Virus record (IMG/VR): IMGVR_UViG_3300021431_000003
Location: 96,001-160,000 of that record
DNA length: 64,000 nt
Reading direction: 5' to 3' (one strand)
Source of the DNA: a virus
Lineage: Duplodnaviria; Caudoviricetes
In this document: piece after piece, positions 5,538-25,463 of the stretch
How positions within the stretch are numbered: position 1 is the first letter of the stretch
How the letters are laid out: every line of letters starts with the position of its first letter
Program-made: the position numbers and the translations under genes
The notes under the pieces: model-generated
What the model was told of the DNA's origin: nothing
Databases searched by the model: none
What the model saw: the letters and a program-made list of their open reading frames with translations, nothing else

Positions 5538-6485
5538 TTAGAAACGATTTATCTGGTCTCCGATAACTACAACCTTCCAAGACTGACCAATATTAGTATT
5601 AGATGCAATACCAGTACCAAAGTCAATACTTGTATCATCTAACAATCCTCTATCTGGTCTTGGATAATTAGGAACTGGCATACCAGTAGATGTATCAATA
5701 ACATCAAACATCTTATCACCAGTATTAGGGTCATATACCACAACAGTTTCGATATTAGGATTATCTCCTAAAATCATACGATTCTGCTCTGGTGTGAGAT
5801 TACTCATGAAGTTATTAAAGTTCTGCTCTTCATTTGCTGGTACTGCATTCATACCAGACATAAGAGCACCCATATTACCAGCTACATTAGCAGAAGTATA
5901 CTGAAGTGCTGGATGTTGTGCTGCTCCGATAGGTGTATTAATATATGCATTATAAAGATCTGCAATATATTTATCATCATCTTGCTGATTTGCTGCAGCA
6001 GATTTAATGTCTTTAATTCTACGAATTTCAAGTTCATGGCACTTTGTCTTTACAGCGTTAATTTCCTTAATAGCAGAAATCTTAGAAGAGACAAGAGAAC
6101 TTGCTGTAGCACAAAGATCGGAGATATACTTGTACTTACCTTTTAAAGTCTTACTTCCTCTGATATGGTCAATCTCTCCTTTAACATCACCAGCAAGAAT
6201 ATCAAGCTGAGCGATAGATACTCTGAGCATATCATTAGTCTCTTCATATGTATCTTCGTATGGTTCATTAGTCTGACACAAAGGTAAACCAGAAGAATTA
6301 CTATTAGATTGAACTACTGTAACTTCTCCTCCATTTTGTTCAGACTTTCTAGGTCTTCCTCTTTTCCTTTTAGGTGGTTCTGCAATTGGATTTTCTACAA
6401 CGGGAGCAATTGCATTCTGAGTATCATTATCTTCTGGAATCTTAGCTCCTCTAGCTAAGACCTCCATATCTAAAAAGCTCTTCAT
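5538..6485 (-). CDS. Hypothetical protein with AT-hook-like motif and coiled coil
   Basis: 315-aa ORF, AAGGAGG RBS, PPKRKRGRPRKS motif; late promoter at 6513-6524. Confidence 0.6.
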   Translation of the reverse strand: MKSFLDMEVLARGAKIPEDNDTQNAIAPVVENPIAEPPKRKRGRPRKSEQNGGEVTVVQSNSNSSGLPLCQTNEPYEDTYEETNDMLRVSIAQLDILAGDVKGEIDHIRGSKTLKGKYKYISDLCATASSLVSSKISAIKEINAVKTKCHELEIRRIKDIKSAAANQQDDDKYIADLYNAYINTPIGAAQHPALQYTSANVAGNMGALMSGMNAVPANEEQNFNNFMSNLTPEQNRMILGDNPNIETVVVYDPNTGDKMFDVIDTSTGMPVPNYPRPDRGLLDDTSIDFGTGIASNTNIGQSWKVVVIGDQINRF

Positions 6486-6563
6486 ATTGATTTCCTCCTT
6501 CTATGAGCATTTTATAGAAATGTTTTTGACATAAATGCTTAATAGGGTATGTTAACATTTAGA

Positions 6564-6698
6564 TAAGATGGTATTTAGGCCTCCATTTATACCATCTTAC
6601 GGTTGAAGGGCATGAATGATTTCCTCTTTGATGCATTGTTTATTCCTCTGAGAAGTCCTCCATGGTATCGGGGCCATGGAGGACAAACTTTATTTTTT
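6564..6698 (+). ncRNA. Candidate small structured RNA
   Basis: Own AACA-N6-TA promoter (6554-6565), 11-bp 5' stem with GCCUCC loop, 11-bp GC-rich 3' hairpin then U-rich tract; no convincing ORF. Confidence 0.45.
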
Positions 6699-6771
6699 AT
6701 ACTAGAAGAAACAAATATATAAATGACTCAGATAACGTAATACGTAAGCTGAAGAATTGGAGGTTTTATAT

Positions 6772-8820
6772 ATGAAAAAATTCGATAATGATTTGTTGAT
6801 TGGTAATTATCCTCCTGGATATGACTTAGCATTGTTTAATACAATCTATCATTATCCACAGAAGGATAATAATGGAAAATGGAGACCTGGAGTAATTGAC
6901 CTTATTATTAAAGATAATGAAACAGGAGAGAAGTTTCTTGAAACTATTGTAGACCCGTTATATGAGTATTATATGCTTAAACCAGATGTAATGGTACCGA
7001 GTTACAATCTTGAATATGCAATGATAGATGACTGTAAGTGTATATTAGCACCTTATGGTCAACTTCAGAAAGATATTGCTGAACGTCTTGGAGAGCTTGA
7101 TAAGTTTTGGGAAAATATTCGTAACGGTAATAGAGAAGCAAATAAACGTTTGTGTAATTATCATCCTGCAGTATTAATGTCTGATATGGATATTGAAGAT
7201 AATATTCGTTTTCAGTTCTCACACACTTATGCTAATACGTATAAGAAAGCTTCGAAGTCTTATCTGGATATTGAGGCAGATACAATTCATTGTAAAGGTG
7301 ACTTTGTAGAGATGGGTGAGTGTCCGATTAATGCGGTATCATTTATTGATGACCAGTCATTAGTTATTCATTCATTCTTGTTGAGAAATGATGAGAATCC
7401 ATTGATTACAGAATTTGAAAAGATGGCTAATACACCAACAATGGAAAGTGAATTAAAGTCATTTTTAATAGATGCAGTTGGTGGTCCAGCTAATGCTGAT
7501 AAGTATAAAGTAAATCAGATGAGAGTACAATTCCATTTCTATGATGAGAAAGATGAATTAACAATGCTCAAGCATCTGTTTAATTATATTAATAATCTGA
7601 AACCAGATTTTGTATTGGCTTGGAATATGGCATTCGATATTCCGTATATCATTCAGAGAATCATTAATCTTGGTGCTAATCCAAAAGATATTATGTGTAG
7701 TCCAGATTTCAGATTCAAAGAAGTTAAATACTTCATTGATGAAAGAAACGAATTCAATTATGAAGAACGTAATGACTTTGCGAAGATTAGTTCTTATTCT
7801 GTATATCTTGACCAAATGATTCATTTTGCATCTAGAAGAAAAGGACGAGCAGCATTACCGTCTTATAGATTGGATTTCATTGGACAGATGACTTGTGGAG
7901 TTAAGAAACTCGATTATAGTCATATTACTCATAACCTTGCAGAGTTACCTTATAAAGATTATAAGACATTTGTATTCTATAATATCATGGATACAATTGT
8001 ACAGTATTGTATTGAATTCAAATCTGCGGATATTGATTCAGCATATAATAATGTACTTCTGAATAATACACGTTGGAGTAAGATTTATAGACAGACTGTA
8101 TATCTTAAGAATAGACAAGCCATCTTTAATTATAAGAATGGTTTTATTACAGGTAACAATGTAAATGCAAATACACCTAAAGTATCTTTCCCTGGTGCAT
8201 TTGTAGCAGACCCGAAACTCAATAGTGATTATTCAAAGCTTAGAATTAATGGTCGTCCAGTATCTATATATGATAACTTAGACGACTTTGATTATAAAGC
8301 TCTGTATCCGAGTATCACATCCGAATTTAATATGTCTCGTACAACTCTTATTGGTCATCTTACTATACCAGAAAAAGTATATGAATTTGAGAATAGATTT
8401 AATAGAGATGAGATTAAATGGAGAAGAGAAGCTCAGTTTATGGATGATTTACAATCACATAACTGGATTGAATTTTTCCATCGTTGGTTCCATTTTGGCA
8501 GTTATGAAGACATATATGATGATGTAATTGAATACTTTACTAAAGTTAAGTATCCTATGGGTGTATTGACATATCATAATTTTGATGATGTATCTGGTAC
8601 TCCTGAAGAAGATAATCGTAATGTATTTGTTCATTGTTCTACAGCAAGAGATTTACAGATTGTAGATGCTATTGCAAGTAAGAAACTAGATTATATGCAT
8701 CAACCGAGATTTGAGTTTGAAAAGTCTGACTTTAATAACTTTACAGAAATCTTTAATAGTCTTAAGGATGGTTATCTGTATAGTAAACCTAGACAAGTGG
8801 AGGATAGTAACAATGGATAA
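6772..8820 (+). CDS. Family B DNA polymerase, N-terminal subunit of split enzyme (3'-5' exonuclease + motif A)
   Basis: ExoI YLDIEAD, ExoII AWNMAFDIPYI, SYRLDFIG, ExoIII YNIMD, SFPGAFV, motif A DFDYKALYPSI; no KxxxN or DTDS motif; GGAGG RBS before ATG 6772. Confidence 0.9.
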   Translation: MKKFDNDLLIGNYPPGYDLALFNTIYHYPQKDNNGKWRPGVIDLIIKDNETGEKFLETIVDPLYEYYMLKPDVMVPSYNLEYAMIDDCKCILAPYGQLQKDIAERLGELDKFWENIRNGNREANKRLCNYHPAVLMSDMDIEDNIRFQFSHTYANTYKKASKSYLDIEADTIHCKGDFVEMGECPINAVSFIDDQSLVIHSFLLRNDENPLITEFEKMANTPTMESELKSFLIDAVGGPANADKYKVNQMRVQFHFYDEKDELTMLKHLFNYINNLKPDFVLAWNMAFDIPYIIQRIINLGANPKDIMCSPDFRFKEVKYFIDERNEFNYEERNDFAKISSYSVYLDQMIHFASRRKGRAALPSYRLDFIGQMTCGVKKLDYSHITHNLAELPYKDYKTFVFYNIMDTIVQYCIEFKSADIDSAYNNVLLNNTRWSKIYRQTVYLKNRQAIFNYKNGFITGNNVNANTPKVSFPGAFVADPKLNSDYSKLRINGRPVSIYDNLDDFDYKALYPSITSEFNMSRTTLIGHLTIPEKVYEFENRFNRDEIKWRREAQFMDDLQSHNWIEFFHRWFHFGSYEDIYDDVIEYFTKVKYPMGVLTYHNFDDVSGTPEEDNRNVFVHCSTARDLQIVDAIASKKLDYMHQPRFEFEKSDFNNFTEIFNSLKDGYLYSKPRQVEDSNNG

Positions 8821-21433: not shown

Positions 21434-21534
21434 CCTCCTTTATCCAATCCATTGAACTGTAGCATTTGTTGCTCCCCAAGGAGCACCAGGTATACTTCCT
21501 TCTGGTTTATTTATAGTAATAGATGTAAGAGCTG
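21434..21534. repeat. 101-nt exact direct repeat, copy 1 (copy 2 at 21984-22084)
   Basis: Identical 3' ends of the two LRR genes including stop codon and next RBS. Confidence 0.95.
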
Positions 21535-21973
21535 CACCACCAAATGCACTATAACCAATACTAGTTACACTACTAGGTATAGTAATAGATGTAAGAGATG
21601 TGCAACCAGCGAATGCACTACTACCAATACTAGTTACACCATCAGATATAGTAATAGATGTAAGAGATGTACAACTAGCAAATGCACCATCACTAATACT
21701 AGTTACACTACCAGGTATAGTAATAGATATAAGAGATGAACAACCACTAAATACACCACTACTACCAATACTAGTTACACTATCAGGTATAGTAATAGAT
21801 GTAAGAGATGTACAATTAGCAAATGCACCATTACCAATACTAGTTACACTATCAGGTATAGTAATAGATGTAAGGGATGCATAATAACTAAATGCACCCT
21901 CACCAATACTAGTTATACCATTAGGTATAGTAATAGATGACACATTTCTAGAAATAATACTTTCTAATATCAT
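21440..21973 (-). CDS. Short BspA-type leucine-rich repeat (LRR_5) protein, about 6 repeats
   Basis: [21 protein letters not shown] repeats; start ATG 21973 after AAAGGAGG. Confidence 0.9.
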
Positions 21974-21983
21974 ATATCTAACG

Positions 21984-22084
21984 CCTCCTTTATCCAATCC
22001 ATTGAACTGTAGCATTTGTTGCTCCCCAAGGAGCACCAGGTATACTTCCTTCTGGTTTATTTATAGTAATAGATGTAAGAGCTG
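21984..22084. repeat. 101-nt exact direct repeat, copy 2
   Basis: Matches 21434-21534 at an offset of 550 nt. Confidence 0.95.
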
Positions 22085-24884
22085 TACAATCACTAAATGC
22101 ACGACTACCAATACTAGTTACATTATTAGGTATAGTAATAGATGTAAGAGATGTTTTTCTAAATGCATAATCGCCAATACTAGTTACACTATCAGGTATA
22201 GTAATAGATATAAGAGATGTACAAACATCAAATGCACCCTTACCAATACTAGTTATACCATCGGGCATAGTAATAGATGCAAGAGATGTACAATTATAAA
22301 ATACATAATCACTAATACTAGTTACACCATCGGGTATAGTAATAGATGTAAGAGATGCACAACCAGAAAATGCATTTCTACCAATACTAGTTACACTATC
22401 AGGTATAGTAATAGATGTAAGAGATGTACAATTAGAAATTGCATAACTACCAATACTAGTTACACCATCAGATATAGTAATAGATGTAAGAGATCTACAA
22501 CCAGCAAATGCACCATCTCCAATATTAGTTATACTACTAGGTATAGTAATAGATGTAATAGTTCTTTCTATATATTCTTTTAGATGATCCATATCAAATT
22601 TTATAGAAAAAATGTTTTCTGTAATAAAATTATATACACCATTAGCAGTAGGTACTTGTCTATCGGTACTATTATCATTTATTGTTGTAGTAACATCTTC
22701 ATTATGAATTAATATATTAGTGGCACCCCAAGGATAACCAGTTCTAGATTTATAGTTTTCGAGTAAAAGTATATCACAATGATTAAATGCACCATCACCA
22801 ATACTAGTTACACTATCAGGTATAGTAATAGATGTAAGAGATCTACAACCAGCGAATGCAGTACCACCAATACTAGTTACACCATCATGTATAGTAATAG
22901 ATGTAAGAGATGCACAACCACCAAATGCACCGTTACCAATACTAGTTACACTACCAGGTATAGTAATAGATGTAAGAGATGAACAACCACTAAATGCACC
23001 GCCACCAATACTAGTTACACCATCAGATATAGTAATAGATGTAAGAGATCTACAACCAGTAAATGCAGCATCAGCAATACTAGTTACACTACTAGGTATA
23101 GTAATATATGCAAGAGATGCACAACTAGAAAATGCAGTAGCACCAATACTAGTTACACTACTAGGTATAATAATAGATGCAAGAGATGTACAACCAGCAA
23201 ATGTATTATAACCAATACTAGTTATACCATTAGATATAGTAATAGATTTAAGAGATGTACAATTAAGAAATGCAGCATTACCAATACTAGTTACCTTATT
23301 AGGTATAGTAATAGATGTAAGGGATGTACAATAACTAAATGTATTACTACCGATACTAGTTACACTATCAGGTATAGTAATATATTTAAGAGACGTACAA
23401 TTAAAAAATACACCATCACTAATACTAGTTACACCATCAGGTATAGTAATAGATTTAAGAGATGCACAATAATTAAATGCACCAGCACTAATACTAGTTA
23501 TACTTGTATTAGATCCTATAATAACATGTTTAAGAGTATCTGTACTATCTATAAAAGTTTTAGTGTCAGCAATTGTTGTAAATGTATATAATTCAGGATC
23601 ACCTTCACACATTACATTTATTTTAGTATCATCTAAACTGCTACTAATAGAAGATAATGCATTATATACAGCTTTTGCGGTAGGCACTTGTCTATCTGTA
23701 TTGCTATCATTTATTGTTGTAGTAACATTTTCGTTATGAATCATTATACTATGAGCATCCCAAGGATAACCAGTTCTAGATTTATAGTTATCGAGTAAAA
23801 GTATATCACAATTAGTAAATGCACTATCGGCAATACTAGTTACACTACTAGGTATAGTAATAGATGTAAGAGATTTACAACCACTAAATGCATATTTACC
23901 AATACTAGTTACACTACTAGGTATAGCAATAAATGCAAGAGATGTACAACCATCAAATGTATTATCACCAATACTAGTTATACTACTATTAGGTATAGCA
24001 ATAGATGCAAGAGATGTACAACCACTAAATGTACTACTACCGATACTAGTTACACTATCAGGTATATTAATAGATGTAAGAGATGTACAACTAGCAAATG
24101 CACCATCACCAATACTAGTTACACCACTAGGTATAGTAATAGATGTAAGAGATGTGCAACCATCAAATGCATAATTACCAATACTAGTTACACTACTAGG
24201 TATAGTAATAGATGTAAGAGACGTACAATTTTGAAATGCCCAATTATAAATACTAGTTACACCACTAGGTATAGTAATAGATGTAAGAGATGTACAACCA
24301 CTAAATGTACTACTACCAATACTAGTTACACCATTAGGTATAGTAATAGATGTAAGAGATGTACAATTAGCAAATGCATTATTACCAATATTAGTAGTTA
24401 CACTACTAGGCATAGTAATATATTTAAGAGATGTGCAACTAACAAATGCTGCTATACCAATACTAGTTACACTATCAGGTATATTAATAGATGTAAGAGA
24501 TGTACAATTACTAAATGCACCAACATCAATAACAGTTACACCAGCATTAGATCCTATAATAACACTTTTTGGTTTATTATTAGAATTAATATAAGTTTTT
24601 GTATCATATAATGTATCAAACTTATGCAATGTTATTTCATCGTCTATTACATTTATTTTTGTTTCATCAATTTTAAGTGGCTCTACTTCAATATGACACC
24701 ATTGTTCGCCATTATAATAGTATACTGAACCTACACTGATTGTAGTTTCATCTACTTCTTTTTCTGAAATTAATATACACGTTCTACCTATGAATAAATT
24801 AGAGTCAGGTAATGTATTAACTTTTTCTGGGGAAGCTAATTTGATTTCATTTCCCTGAAAATCTAAATGTGTATTAATTTTCAT
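21990..24884 (-). CDS. Large BspA-type LRR (LRR_5) protein with fibre-type N-terminus, about 29 repeats in three blocks
   Basis: 23-aa repeat [23 protein letters not shown] (about 11+11+7), YPWGA/APWGA caps, AAGGAGG RBS. Confidence 0.92.
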
Positions 24885-24905: not shown

Positions 24906-25463
24906 TTAATTATTAGAGAATGGGTCATTAATAACATACTCCTCGTATCCAGATAAGTTACATTCACAATGCTGATATGGAGATACTGGTTCTGGACACT
25001 GAGGCACAAAATCAGGAATCATACCATCAAAACACTTTACAGGCTTAATAGAAATAATATTTTCAATACCAATTCTAAGAAGCTTGCTTTCATATGCATC
25101 GGAGTAGTCTACAATAATTGCAGTTACGTCAATCATATGAGGTTTATCAATGAGCTTTTCAATACCCTTAGAGCATTCAAAGTCAATGATTCTTGCAGCA
25201 AAAGTGCAAACTCCACGAGTCTGACTAACTGCTTTAATCTCATAAGTTTCATTCTCATGAATGTCAAATGTCTGTACGTGACCATGACAATCCACATAAC
25301 GAACAGATAATACTGTTCTTCCTACAATACCAACTTTGCCATGATAATGTGGATGACAATGATGGTGAGGAGGGCATGGATGAGGTGGTGGACAAGGCCC
25401 AGGACCGCAATTATAATCATCAAAATGTGGTACATTCTGATAGTAATAAACAGGCTTCTTCAT
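24906..25463 (-). CDS. Putative structural protein with Pro/Cys/His-rich N-terminus; paralog of 55449-55835
   Basis: CGPGPCPPPHPCPPHHHCHPHYHG; AAGGAGG RBS; late promoter 25492-25503. Confidence 0.6.
   Translation of the reverse strand: MKKPVYYYQNVPHFDDYNCGPGPCPPPHPCPPHHHCHPHYHGKVGIVGRTVLSVRYVDCHGHVQTFDIHENETYEIKAVSQTRGVCTFAARIIDFECSKGIEKLIDKPHMIDVTAIIVDYSDAYESKLLRIGIENIISIKPVKCFDGMIPDFVPQCPEPVSPYQHCECNLSGYEEYVINDPFSNN

What the first reader, a model, noticed from the sequence alone, without database searches (positions are those of the whole stretch)
21440..24530. About 35 near-identical 69-nt LRR units with invariant framework and hypervariable surface codons: candidate recombinational receptor-diversification system
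Seen: framework DNA (coding strand TCT CTT ACA TCT ATT ACT ATA CCT .. GTA ACT AGT ATT GGT) is almost invariant, even at synonymous positions. The codons at IGxxAFxxC differ in nearly every unit (NG/SS/DG/KY/YN/AT/GG/RN and AN/SG/QN/DG/FN/LN/YN/DV...). The whole module (cap + 11 repeats + [16 protein letters not shown] + stalk) is duplicated. Inference: ongoing homogenisation and shuffling by unequal recombination or gene conversion builds a combinatorial binding surface, conceptually like lamprey VLR assembly, with no reverse transcriptase visible in this window. This is my best candidate for an undescribed system here.
Basis: partly seen in the sequence, partly recalled or inferred. Interest (0 to 1): 0.8.

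Follow-up and report, generated by a model that had tools for sequence, protein, structure and literature searches.

The report
Jumbo-phage leucine-rich-repeat tail fibre genes
Two neighbouring genes of a 224-kb animal-gut phage encode probable host-binding tail-fibre proteins built from about 35 copies of a 23-residue leucine-rich repeat; ordinary recombination keeps the scaffold DNA uniform while exposed residues change fast, so this is a striking but ordinary way to vary a binding protein, not a new diversification machine.

Summary
Window 21440-24884 (minus strand) holds a 964-aa gene and a 177-aa gene made of BspA-type LRR_5 repeats, about 35 units of 69 nt. The genome is a complete 223.5-kb jumbo phage.

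- **Framework:** framework codons are the same codon in 96.7% of cells, against 58.5% expected from genome codon usage.
- **Variable codons:** six codons per unit are near saturation for amino-acid change.
- **Recombination:** relatives show repeat turnover and gene conversion. Every relative has different unit numbers per module. Two otherwise identical proteins differ by exactly four units. The 3' caps of the large and small genes are identical within two genomes but differ between genomes. The non-repeat caps that duplicated along with the modules are 3-4 times more diverged at synonymous sites than the repeats.
- **No programmed system:** the genome has no reverse transcriptase, and invariant synonymous adenines exclude DGR mutagenesis. 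The near-identical strain pair has no substitutions. No dedicated enzyme was found.

A 94%-related phage carries a canonical DGR on the orthologous fibre gene, so this locus is a ligand-binding hot spot.

Verdict: a new member of a known kind, namely mosaic phage receptor-binding genes evolving by repeat recombination plus fast change of exposed residues. This scan has reached similar verdicts on LRR genes in other phages.

The parts
21990..24884 (-). P0001, a 964-aa tail-fibre-type protein: N-terminal anchor, then three LRR_5 modules separated by two cap+stalk segments, then a C-terminal cap
   Evidence: ORF and translation. LRR_5 E 4.6e-269. PDB relatives 4fs7, 4gt6, 4h09, 6mlx TpLRR. AlphaFold model has pLDDT 70-90 in the three LRR modules and below 50 in the anchor and stalks.
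24675..24884 (-). N-terminal anchor (about residues 1-70), shared in type with the next fibre-like gene P0003
   Evidence: 32% identity to P0003 residues 1-53, E 3e-5. 76-83% identical in the orthologues of L011, L012 and L025.
23814..24659 (-). N-cap and LRR module 1 (11 units)
23529..23813 (-). Cap ([17 protein letters not shown]) and stalk 1, with a VPTAKAVY motif
   Evidence: Weak similarity of the stalk motif to P0003 (E 0.01).
22782..23528 (-). N-cap and LRR module 2 (11 units), a duplicate of the module 1 architecture
22557..22781 (-). Cap ([17 protein letters not shown]) and stalk 2 with a predicted helix
21990..22556 (-). LRR module 3 (7 units plus a cap unit) and C-terminal cap [24 protein letters not shown]
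21440..21973 (-). P0002, a 177-aa stand-alone LRR_5 protein (N-cap [11 protein letters not shown], 6 units, same C-cap). It has its own AGGAGG site and ATG. It is conserved as an intact gene with varying unit number in five relatives.
21984..22085 (-). 102-nt tract (last unit, C-cap, stop codon, AGGAGG) that is 100% identical to 21434-21535
21434..21535 (-). Second copy of the 102-nt identical tract at the end of P0002
20092..21426 (-). P0003, the neighbouring 444-aa fibre-like protein with the same type of N-terminal anchor (context, not repeat-bearing)

Best explanation
P0001 and P0002 are virion tail-fibre or adhesin proteins of a jumbo phage from the animal gut. Their ligand-binding parts are BspA-type (TpLRR-class, Pfam LRR_5) leucine-rich-repeat solenoids: three 'beads' on one chain in P0001 and a separate single bead in P0002. 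The codon pattern comes from ordinary evolutionary processes acting on a tandem repeat, in two parts. First, homologous recombination between the roughly 30-nt and 15-nt identical framework stretches (unequal crossing-over, slippage, short-patch gene conversion) keeps duplicating, deleting and copying units within and between modules and between the two genes. All units therefore stay close to one consensus, even at synonymous sites. Second, the solvent-exposed x positions of the variable segment (PxxV, IGxxAFxxC) are unconstrained or under diversifying selection for ligand or host-receptor binding, so they run to saturation. Shown here: family membership, the codon statistics, gene conversion of the 3' caps, unit-number differences among relatives, and the absence of a retroelement. 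Inferred: virion location, receptor binding, and selection (rather than mere lack of constraint) at the variable residues.
For: - **Family and context:** LRR_5 match and solved relatives. The genes lie in a structural block with a tail-tube protein and virion-protein PHROGs. The anchor is shared with P0003. The orthologue in L012 has the same anchor and one LRR module, followed by a phrog_5302 'tail protein' domain that is the target of a canonical DGR.
- **Synonymous invariance:** 96.7% against 58.5% expected.
- **Homogenisation:** units of modules 1 and 2 have pS 0.06-0.08, against 0.24-0.27 for the co-duplicated caps and stalk. The 93-nt C-caps are identical between the paralogues in W and in L026, while orthologues differ by 5-12 nt. 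The six framework-codon rare synonymous variants are each carried by exactly two units, five of the six pairs in different modules or genes. Those pairs are closer at variable codons than random pairs (41 of 20,000 random sets).
- **Turnover:** units per module are 11/11/7+6, 8/10/2+7, 9/9+8, 13/6+7 and 7/16+4 in five genomes. P0088 equals the L013 protein minus exactly four units, with no other change. A perfect tandem unit occurs in L013. A two-unit tandem repeat is visible in the L026 protein sequence.
- **Fast exposed positions:** in positional orthologues, pN is 0.49 at hypervariable codons against 0.055 in the cap. In a collinear three-unit paralogous block there are 19 nonsynonymous and 2 synonymous differences.
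- **Clade-specific framework:** the exact framework DNA occurs only in this phage clade.
Against: - **No genome-specific homogenisation of units:** mean differences are 12.35 nt within genomes and 12.80 nt between genomes. W shows no decay of similarity with distance along the array. Simple unequal crossing-over would predict both. The star-like pattern could instead mean selection on the nucleotide sequence, or frequent exchange between co-infecting genomes.
- **Weak evidence for positive selection:** pN/pS at hypervariable codons is clearly above 1 only in W paralogue comparisons (about 5). It is 1.1-1.6 in relatives and in positional orthologues, and the sites are saturated. The block test gives p = 0.066.
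- **Possible assembly error:** the four-unit difference between L013 and P0088 could be an assembly collapse.
- **No direct data:** nothing here shows virion location or a ligand.
Confidence: 0.72

Rival explanations
1. A selected, high-frequency recombinational diversification strategy. The invariant framework DNA is maintained because it serves as homology for frequent gene conversion and unit shuffling within the genome, with P0002 as a donor cassette, and between co-infecting genomes. Each burst would then contain a library of fibre variants. This resembles the conserved glycine-rich motifs that flank the hypervariable segments of T-even gp38 (my recollection of that literature, not checked here), or in outcome lamprey VLR assembly.
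For: Framework synonymous sites are less diverged than the non-repeat parts of the same gene, both within a genome and in positional orthologues (pS 0.115 against 0.208). Units are equidistant whatever their module, gene or genome. Short shared patches link units of different modules and of P0001 and P0002. The tails are 102 nt identical. The P0002 slot is conserved in five genomes.
Against: The closest strain pair has no point difference in 865 residues. Array pieces are identical in two samples. P0002 has its own ribosome-binding site, start codon and conserved N-terminus, so it looks like an expressed protein rather than a silent cassette. No dedicated recombinase, deaminase or retroelement was found. 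There is only a sub-threshold RecA-like match elsewhere in the genome, and no RecT or ERF. Contigs cannot show rare variants, so the frequency of variation is simply unmeasured.
Confidence: 0.12
2. The hypervariable codons are the product, present or past, of a diversity-generating retroelement acting on the LRR units. The NNT/RRT look of the variable codons would be what an AAT template gives.
For: 93% of hypervariable codons end in T, against 68% expected. A 94%-related phage has a working-looking DGR in the slot that P0002 occupies here.
Against: There is no reverse transcriptase anywhere in the complete genome. The third-position adenines of ACA (codon 5), GTA and GCA are invariant in all 28 units, and those of ACA (codon 2) and ATA in 26 and 27 of 28, although changes there (other than ATA to ATG) would be silent. 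Cytosines and guanines also vary at the variable codons. In L012 the template and variable repeats lie in the non-LRR C-terminal domain, not in the LRR module.
Confidence: 0.03
3. The proteins are virion or secreted adhesins for something other than the host receptor, for example plant fibre, cellulosome components or mucus. On this reading the variable residues are simply unconstrained surface loops.
For: The closest non-phage relatives are cell-surface proteins with dockerin, SLH, Big_2 and FN3 domains. pN/pS near 1-1.6 in orthologues is compatible with lack of constraint. The canonical concave face (T5, S6, T8) is conserved, not variable.
Against: The orthologous gene in L012 is a DGR target with a PHROG 'tail protein' domain. 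As I recall the DGR literature, such targets are typically receptor-binding proteins. More distant relatives replace the slot with other fibre-type genes. The anchor is shared with the neighbouring fibre-like gene.
Confidence: 0.12
4. The array, or its unit order and number, is an assembly artefact of short reads.
For: k=31 contigs of the holding runs break at 21463 and 24478. The L013/P0088 difference is what a repeat collapse would give.
Against: Long intact ORFs with the same architecture occur in six independent assemblies. Nearly every unit is unique at its variable codons. Internal pieces of 140-440 nt are reproduced without mismatch in two runs, though one may be the source sample.
Confidence: 0.03

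Closest known systems
BspA-type / TpLRR-class leucine-rich-repeat surface proteins (Pfam PF13306 LRR_5; Tannerella BspA, Treponema TpLRR 6mlx, pneumococcal PcpA 4cp6, gut Bacillota and Bacteroides surface proteins 4fs7, 4gt6, 4h09)
   Same: 23-residue consensus LxxLxLPxxLxxIxxxAFxxCxx. HMM score far above the family cut-off. Sequence matches to solved structures down to E 2e-66.
   Different: Here the repeats sit in a phage structural operon behind a fibre anchor, as three modules on one chain. They lack the signal peptide or cell-wall anchor architecture of the bacterial proteins. The repeats are far more uniform at the DNA level than the other LRR_5 genes of the same genome.
Mosaic tail-fibre / receptor-binding loci of tailed phages (conserved N-terminal anchor, exchangeable distal part). 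For jumbo phages, the LRR-bearing DUF7941 proteins predicted for Goslar (bioRxiv 10.64898/2026.04.21.720040).
   Same: Conserved anchor with variable distal modules. The slot holds different cassettes in relatives: LRR arrays, a DGR-targeted domain, or non-LRR fibres. LRR domains are proposed as host-recognition parts of jumbo phages.
   Different: No Pfam family other than LRR families matched P0001, so no DUF7941 match is on record. Variation here is mainly by repeat-unit turnover inside the gene rather than by swapping whole distal domains.
Diversity-generating retroelements (BPP-1 Mtd type)
   Same: Same kind of target (fibre tip) and same outcome (a few exposed codons randomised on a fixed scaffold). 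A close relative uses a DGR at this very gene.
   Different: No reverse transcriptase, no template repeat and no adenine-specific pattern in this genome.
Lamprey variable lymphocyte receptors
   Same: An LRR scaffold with variable residues. Gene-conversion-like copying between LRR units.
   Different: VLRs are assembled somatically from an incomplete gene and flanking cassettes, and they vary on the concave sheet (established knowledge, not tested here). Here the ORFs are complete, the concave-strand residues are conserved, and no within-population variation was seen.
Concerted evolution of tandem repeats in bacterial surface proteins (for example the alpha C / Rib family, from my own knowledge) and LRR concatenation in Protochlamydia lgr genes (PMC2216083; seen only as a title and abstract in a search list)
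   Same: Repeats are kept alike at the DNA level by recombination, and repeat number varies between strains.
   Different: Here uniformity is confined to framework codons while interspersed codons are saturated. That requires short conversion tracts or selection for diversity.

Membership tests
Pfam LRR_5 (BspA-type / TpLRR-class LRR) | Match to the family HMM above its gathering score | tested here: met
   877 bits (P0001) and 169 bits (P0002) against a cut-off of 27.7
Pfam LRR_5 (BspA-type / TpLRR-class LRR) | 23-residue repeat with consensus LxxLxLPxxLxxIxxxAFxxCxx | tested here: met
   Unit consensus [10 protein letters not shown]-x-x-V-T-S-I-G-x-x-A-F-x-x in 28 registered units
Pfam LRR_5 (BspA-type / TpLRR-class LRR) | Solenoid fold with one short strand per repeat on the concave side | tested here: met
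   The model has a regular EEE (unit residues 6-8) plus EE (15-16) pattern per 23 residues, pLDDT 70-90. Sequence relatives have solved LRR structures.
Phage tail fibre / receptor-binding protein | Encoded in the virion structural gene block | tested here: met
   Neighbours include a tail-tube protein (PF23806) and PHROG virion structural proteins
Phage tail fibre / receptor-binding protein | Conserved N-terminal attachment part with exchangeable distal part among relatives | tested here: met
   Anchor 76-83% identical in relatives. Distal parts differ: LRR arrays of other sizes, a phrog_5302 tail-protein domain, or non-LRR genes.
Phage tail fibre / receptor-binding protein | Present in the virion and binds the host surface | not testable with these tools
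   Needs proteomics, cryo-EM or adsorption assays
Diversity-generating retroelement | Reverse transcriptase gene near the target | tested here: not met
   No RVT_1 match in the complete 223,528-bp genome. The relative L012 has one.
Diversity-generating retroelement | Template/variable repeat pair differing only at template adenines | tested here: not met
   Silent third-position adenines are invariant or nearly so, and C and G vary too. In L012 all 13 mismatches are at template adenines.
VLR-type programmed LRR assembly | Incomplete expressed gene completed from silent donor cassettes | tested here: not met
   Both genes are complete ORFs with their own start sites
VLR-type programmed LRR assembly | Many variants within one population | tested here: inconclusive
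   Only k=31 contigs were available. They break at the array and drop rare variants. Internal pieces are identical in two runs.
Concerted evolution by gene conversion / unequal crossing-over | Paralogous copies in one genome more alike than orthologous copies between genomes | tested here: met
   Met for the 93-nt C-caps in W and L026 (0 differences against 5-12 between genomes). Not met for the repeat units themselves (12.35 against 12.80 nt).
Concerted evolution by gene conversion / unequal crossing-over | Repeats less diverged than unique sequence that duplicated with them | tested here: met
   pS 0.06-0.08 against 0.24-0.27 (22-31 synonymous sites in the unique parts)
Concerted evolution by gene conversion / unequal crossing-over | Repeat-number differences between close strains, with hybrid units at the junction | tested here: met
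   P0088 against L013: exactly 92 residues (4 units) missing, a hybrid unit at the junction, and 0 other changes. Assembly collapse is not excluded.

The most novel reading that the evidence does not exclude
The invariant framework DNA is itself a selected feature: a set of 15-30-nt homology blocks that let the phage's or host's recombination machinery shuffle and convert LRR units at high frequency, within the genome (with the small gene as a donor) and between co-infecting relatives. The population would then carry a standing combinatorial library of fibre variants. That would be a retroelement-free counterpart of the DGR that a sister phage uses at the same gene.
Probability: 0.1. Interest if true: 0.7.

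Novelty: new member of a known kind. Interest (0 to 1): 0.38.

Why it matters
BspA-type LRR proteins are common in gut and rumen phages, but I know of none whose function has been tested. PHROGs lists the matching families as 'unknown function'.

This locus gives a clean, quantified example of how such a fibre evolves. The scaffold is kept uniform by recombination, about six exposed codons per 23-residue unit are free to change, and whole units and modules come and go.

It also shows two alternative routes to binding-site diversity on one orthologous fibre scaffold in sister phages: LRR-array turnover here and a DGR in L012. That pair would make a good system for comparing the two strategies, and for predicting which residues set host range in uncultured jumbo phages. 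It does not reveal a new molecular mechanism.

Tried and rejected
- **Reads:** the four best runs were available only as k=31 contigs, which stop at 21463 and 24478. All 'joints' had 20-33-nt sides and are repeat or other-organism noise. No statement about population variation is possible.
- **Close relatives in GenBank phages:** no DNA match. Protein hits were all below 60% identity.
- **Wider search for orthologues:** three viral-contig scans and one metagenome scan found only five related contigs. DNA of the P0088 contig could not be fetched.
- **Dedicated recombination genes:** no RecT or ERF. The only RecA-like match is below cut-off (22 bits) at G000:C1:12886-13308.
- **Distance decay along the array:** absent in W, weak in L011.
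- **Host-derived or widely mobile framework:** the 45-nt framework pattern has no exact match in 185,579 species genomes and occurs only in three related viral contigs.
- **Mapping variable residues on a 3D model:** Face assignment therefore rests on LRR geometry and the strand pattern only.
- **Literature:** a preprint that flags LRR_5 as hypervariable in metagenomes attributes it to a nearby MITE, so it is not relevant here.
Full report
**What is there.** The window is bases 96001-160000 of a 223,528-bp viral record with direct terminal repeats, rated 100% complete. GC is about 33%.

The finding covers two adjacent minus-strand genes. P0001 is 21990-24884 (964 aa). P0002 lies in the ORF 21440-22036. 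Its likely start is the ATG at 21973, 9 nt behind an AGGAGG site, which gives 177 aa.

Tandem Repeats Finder reports one 69-nt array of 43 copies at 21512-24507. Both proteins match Pfam LRR_5, the BspA-type leucine-rich repeat, at E 4.6e-269 and 5.2e-50. They also match solved LRR_5 structures, among them TpLRR 6mlx, 4fs7, 4gt6 and PcpA 4cp6. The unit is the TpLRR-class consensus [10 protein letters not shown]-x-x-V-T-S-I-G-x-x-A-F-x-x.

P0001 reads as follows:
- an N-terminal anchor;
- N-cap and 11 units;
- the cap [17 protein letters not shown] and a stalk;
- N-cap and 11 units;
- the same kind of cap and a second stalk;
- 7 units and the C-cap [24 protein letters not shown].

P0002 has a short N-cap, 6 units and the same C-cap. 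An AlphaFold model gives regular solenoid modules at pLDDT 70-90 and unconfident anchor and stalks.

**Context.** Neighbouring genes include a tail-tube protein, several PHROG 'virion structural proteins' and a phage multisubunit RNA-polymerase beta subunit. This is therefore the structural region of a jumbo phage. The first 63 residues of P0001 resemble the N-terminus of the next gene, the fibre-like P0003 (32% identity, E 3e-5).

Runs that hold the sequence are animal-gut metagenomes (sheep, bovine). The nearest non-phage LRR_5 proteins are cell-surface proteins, many with dockerin, SLH, Big_2 or FN3 domains; the one with a source name is from Bacillota.

In 28 cleanly registered units, the majority codon fills 96.7% of the cells that carry the majority residue. 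Drawing codons from this genome's own usage gives 58.5%, with a maximum of 64% in 500 simulations. The choice is position-specific and includes minority codons:
- Ile9 is ATA in 27 of 27 units (genome use 0.18).
- Ser15 is AGT in 28 of 28 (0.23), while Ser3 and Ser6 are TCT.
- Thr5 is ACA, while Thr8 and Thr14 are ACT.

Six codons (11, 12, 18, 19, 22, 23) are hypervariable, with pN 0.49 and pS 0.095. Seven more (2, 5, 6, 8, 10, 17, 20) are moderately variable, with pN 0.20. Ten framework codons have pN 0.02 and pS 0.08. The other LRR_5-bearing ORFs of the same genome have irregular, diverged repeats, so this uniformity is special to the fibre genes.

**Not a DGR.** The whole genome has no reverse transcriptase. 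The third-position adenines of ACA (codon 5), GTA and GCA are invariant in all 28 units. Those of ACA (codon 2) and ATA are invariant in 26 and 27 of 28. Most changes at these positions would be silent. At the variable codons, C and G vary as well as A. Adenine-directed mutagenesis of the units is therefore excluded.

**What relatives show.** I used the neighbouring RNA-polymerase gene and the fibre anchor as probes. This gave five related loci with the orthologous gene (L011, L012, L013, L025, L026) and one further protein (P0088). Six more distant loci carry non-LRR fibre genes in the slot. Flanking genes differ from the window by pS 0.13-0.43.

1. *Unit numbers.* The count per module is different in every genome (large gene + small gene):

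| Genome | Units per module |
|---|---|
| W | 11/11/7 + 6 |
| L025 | 8/10/2 + 7 |
| L011 | 9/9 + 8 |
| L026 | 13/6 + 7 |
| L013 | 7/16 + 4 |

2. *A four-unit difference.* P0088, from a 224,370-bp contig, equals the L013 protein minus exactly 92 residues (four units). There is a hybrid unit at the junction and no other difference in 865 residues. This is what unequal homologous recombination gives, although an assembly collapse would look the same. L013 also has a perfect tandem duplicate unit, and a two-unit tandem repeat is visible in the L026 protein sequence.

3. *Gene conversion of the 3' caps.* The last 93 nt of the large and small genes are identical to each other in W and, independently, in L026. 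Orthologous caps of different genomes differ by 5-12 nt. In W the identity runs for 102 nt, through the stop codon and the following AGGAGG. This is gene conversion between the paralogues.

4. *Repeats younger than their caps.* The non-repeat N-cap and cap+stalk that duplicated together with modules 1 and 2 have pS 0.27 and 0.24. Units of modules 1 and 2 differ by only pS 0.06-0.08. The repeats have therefore been homogenised or turned over since the module duplication.

5. *Shared rare variants.* Each of the six framework-codon rare synonymous variants in W is carried by exactly two units. Five of the six pairs lie in different modules or genes. Those pairs are closer at the variable codons than random pairs (41 of 20,000 random sets as low). 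The last three units of P0002 are collinear with units 634-680 of P0001, with 19 nonsynonymous and 2 synonymous differences, all in variable codons.

6. *Positional orthologues.* In units anchored by unique caps, amino-acid replacement at the hypervariable codons is nine times that of the cap (pN 0.49 against 0.055). pN/pS there is 1.6.

**What does not fit a simple model.**
- Units are equidistant. pS and total differences are the same within a module, between modules, between the two genes and between genomes (12.35 against 12.80 nt). W shows no decay of similarity with distance along the array.
- Framework synonymous divergence in positional orthologues is about half that of the adjacent cap (0.115 against 0.208).
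- This star-like pattern is explained better by many short conversion events drawing on a pool shared among related phages, or by some selection on the DNA itself, than by occasional unequal crossing-over alone.
- The evidence for positive selection is only moderate. Outside W the ratio at hypervariable codons is 1.1-1.6, and the sites are saturated.

**Against a programmed system.**
- Both genes are complete ORFs with their own translation starts.
- P0002 keeps a conserved N-terminus in five genomes, so it is probably an expressed protein rather than a silent donor.
- The nearest strain pair shows no point change at all.
- Internal array pieces of 140-440 nt are identical in two samples of one study.
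- No RecT or ERF was found, and the only RecA-like match is below cut-off.
- The reads available were k=31 contigs that break at the array, so rare variants could not be assessed.

**Which face varies.** From the strand pattern of the model (unit residues 6-8 and 15-16) and standard LRR geometry, the concave-strand residues T5, S6 and T8 are nearly invariant. The hypervariable residues lie in the variable segment: positions 11 and 12 just after the concave strand, and positions 18, 19, 22, 23 and 2 around the buried A20, F21 and C1. These form stripes along the flanks and back of the solenoid, not on the concave sheet that VLRs and many LRR receptors use. This is inference, because I could not read the coordinates.

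**The DGR in a sister phage.** L012 has an RNA polymerase 94% identical to the window's. Its orthologous fibre gene keeps the anchor and one LRR module, then continues into a phrog_5302 'tail protein' domain. The slot that P0002 occupies here holds a reverse transcriptase (RVT_1, E 9e-18) and a 120-nt template repeat. The variable repeat lies at the 3' end of the fibre gene, and all 13 mismatches fall at template adenines. This marks the gene as a ligand-binding protein under pressure to vary. It also shows two different routes to diversity on one scaffold.

**Comparison and verdict.** The proteins are members of LRR_5. The locus behaves like the mosaic receptor-binding loci of other tailed phages. 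LRR domains have been predicted as host-recognition parts of jumbo phages. Earlier follow-ups in this scan reached similar verdicts on LRR genes of other phages.

The exact framework DNA is confined to this phage clade. I file it as a new member of a known kind. Recombination and homogenisation are supported on an evolutionary scale. The 'undescribed VLR-like system' is not.

Noticed in passing
L012:5597-7330 (IMGVR_UViG_3300037249_000569): A canonical DGR sits in a 94%-related phage at the orthologous fibre locus. The reverse transcriptase is at 5597-6589 (-), the template repeat at about 6948-7067, and the variable repeat at about 7211-7330, at the 3' end of the fibre gene. All 13 mismatches lie at template adenines. 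The retroelement occupies the slot that holds the small LRR gene in the window.
   Followed up: yes
L014-L019, about 6000-8600 in each locus: In relatives whose RNA polymerase is 76-79% identical (L014-L019), the LRR fibre slot is filled by unrelated 400-860-aa genes starting MPTI(A/S/E)(D/E)QL. The L014 gene matches phrog_38337 (unknown function). The whole distal fibre gene has been replaced.
   Followed up: partly
G000:C1:197531-199420 and 195849-196502 (outside the window): Two further ORFs with LRR_5 matches (630 and 218 aa). Their repeats are few, irregular and diverged, unlike the fibre array.
   Followed up: partly
window 24906-25463 (-): A 185-aa protein just upstream of the fibre gene has a Cys/Pro/His-rich N-terminal stretch (CGPRPCPxPHPCPPPHH). 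It is conserved in all relatives, matches no Pfam or PHROG family, and its function is unknown.
   Followed up: no
L026:5995-8534 (Ga0247609_10003186): Another orthologous pair of LRR genes (636-aa ORF as listed, and 204 aa). The protein sequence shows a two-unit tandem repeat in module 1.
   Followed up: partly
G000:C1:12886-13308 (outside the window): A weak RecA-fold match (22 bits, below the Pfam cut-off) in a 439-aa ORF. It could be a UvsX-like recombinase or a helicase.
   Followed up: no
window 21512-24507, variable codons: Variation at the first two bases of codons 11, 12, 18 and 23 is almost purely A/G, giving mostly AAT, AGT, GAT and GGT (Asn, Ser, Asp, Gly). Codons 19 and 22 also use T and C. 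I read this as a preference for small polar residues reachable by single transitions, but did not test a mutational cause.
   Followed up: partly
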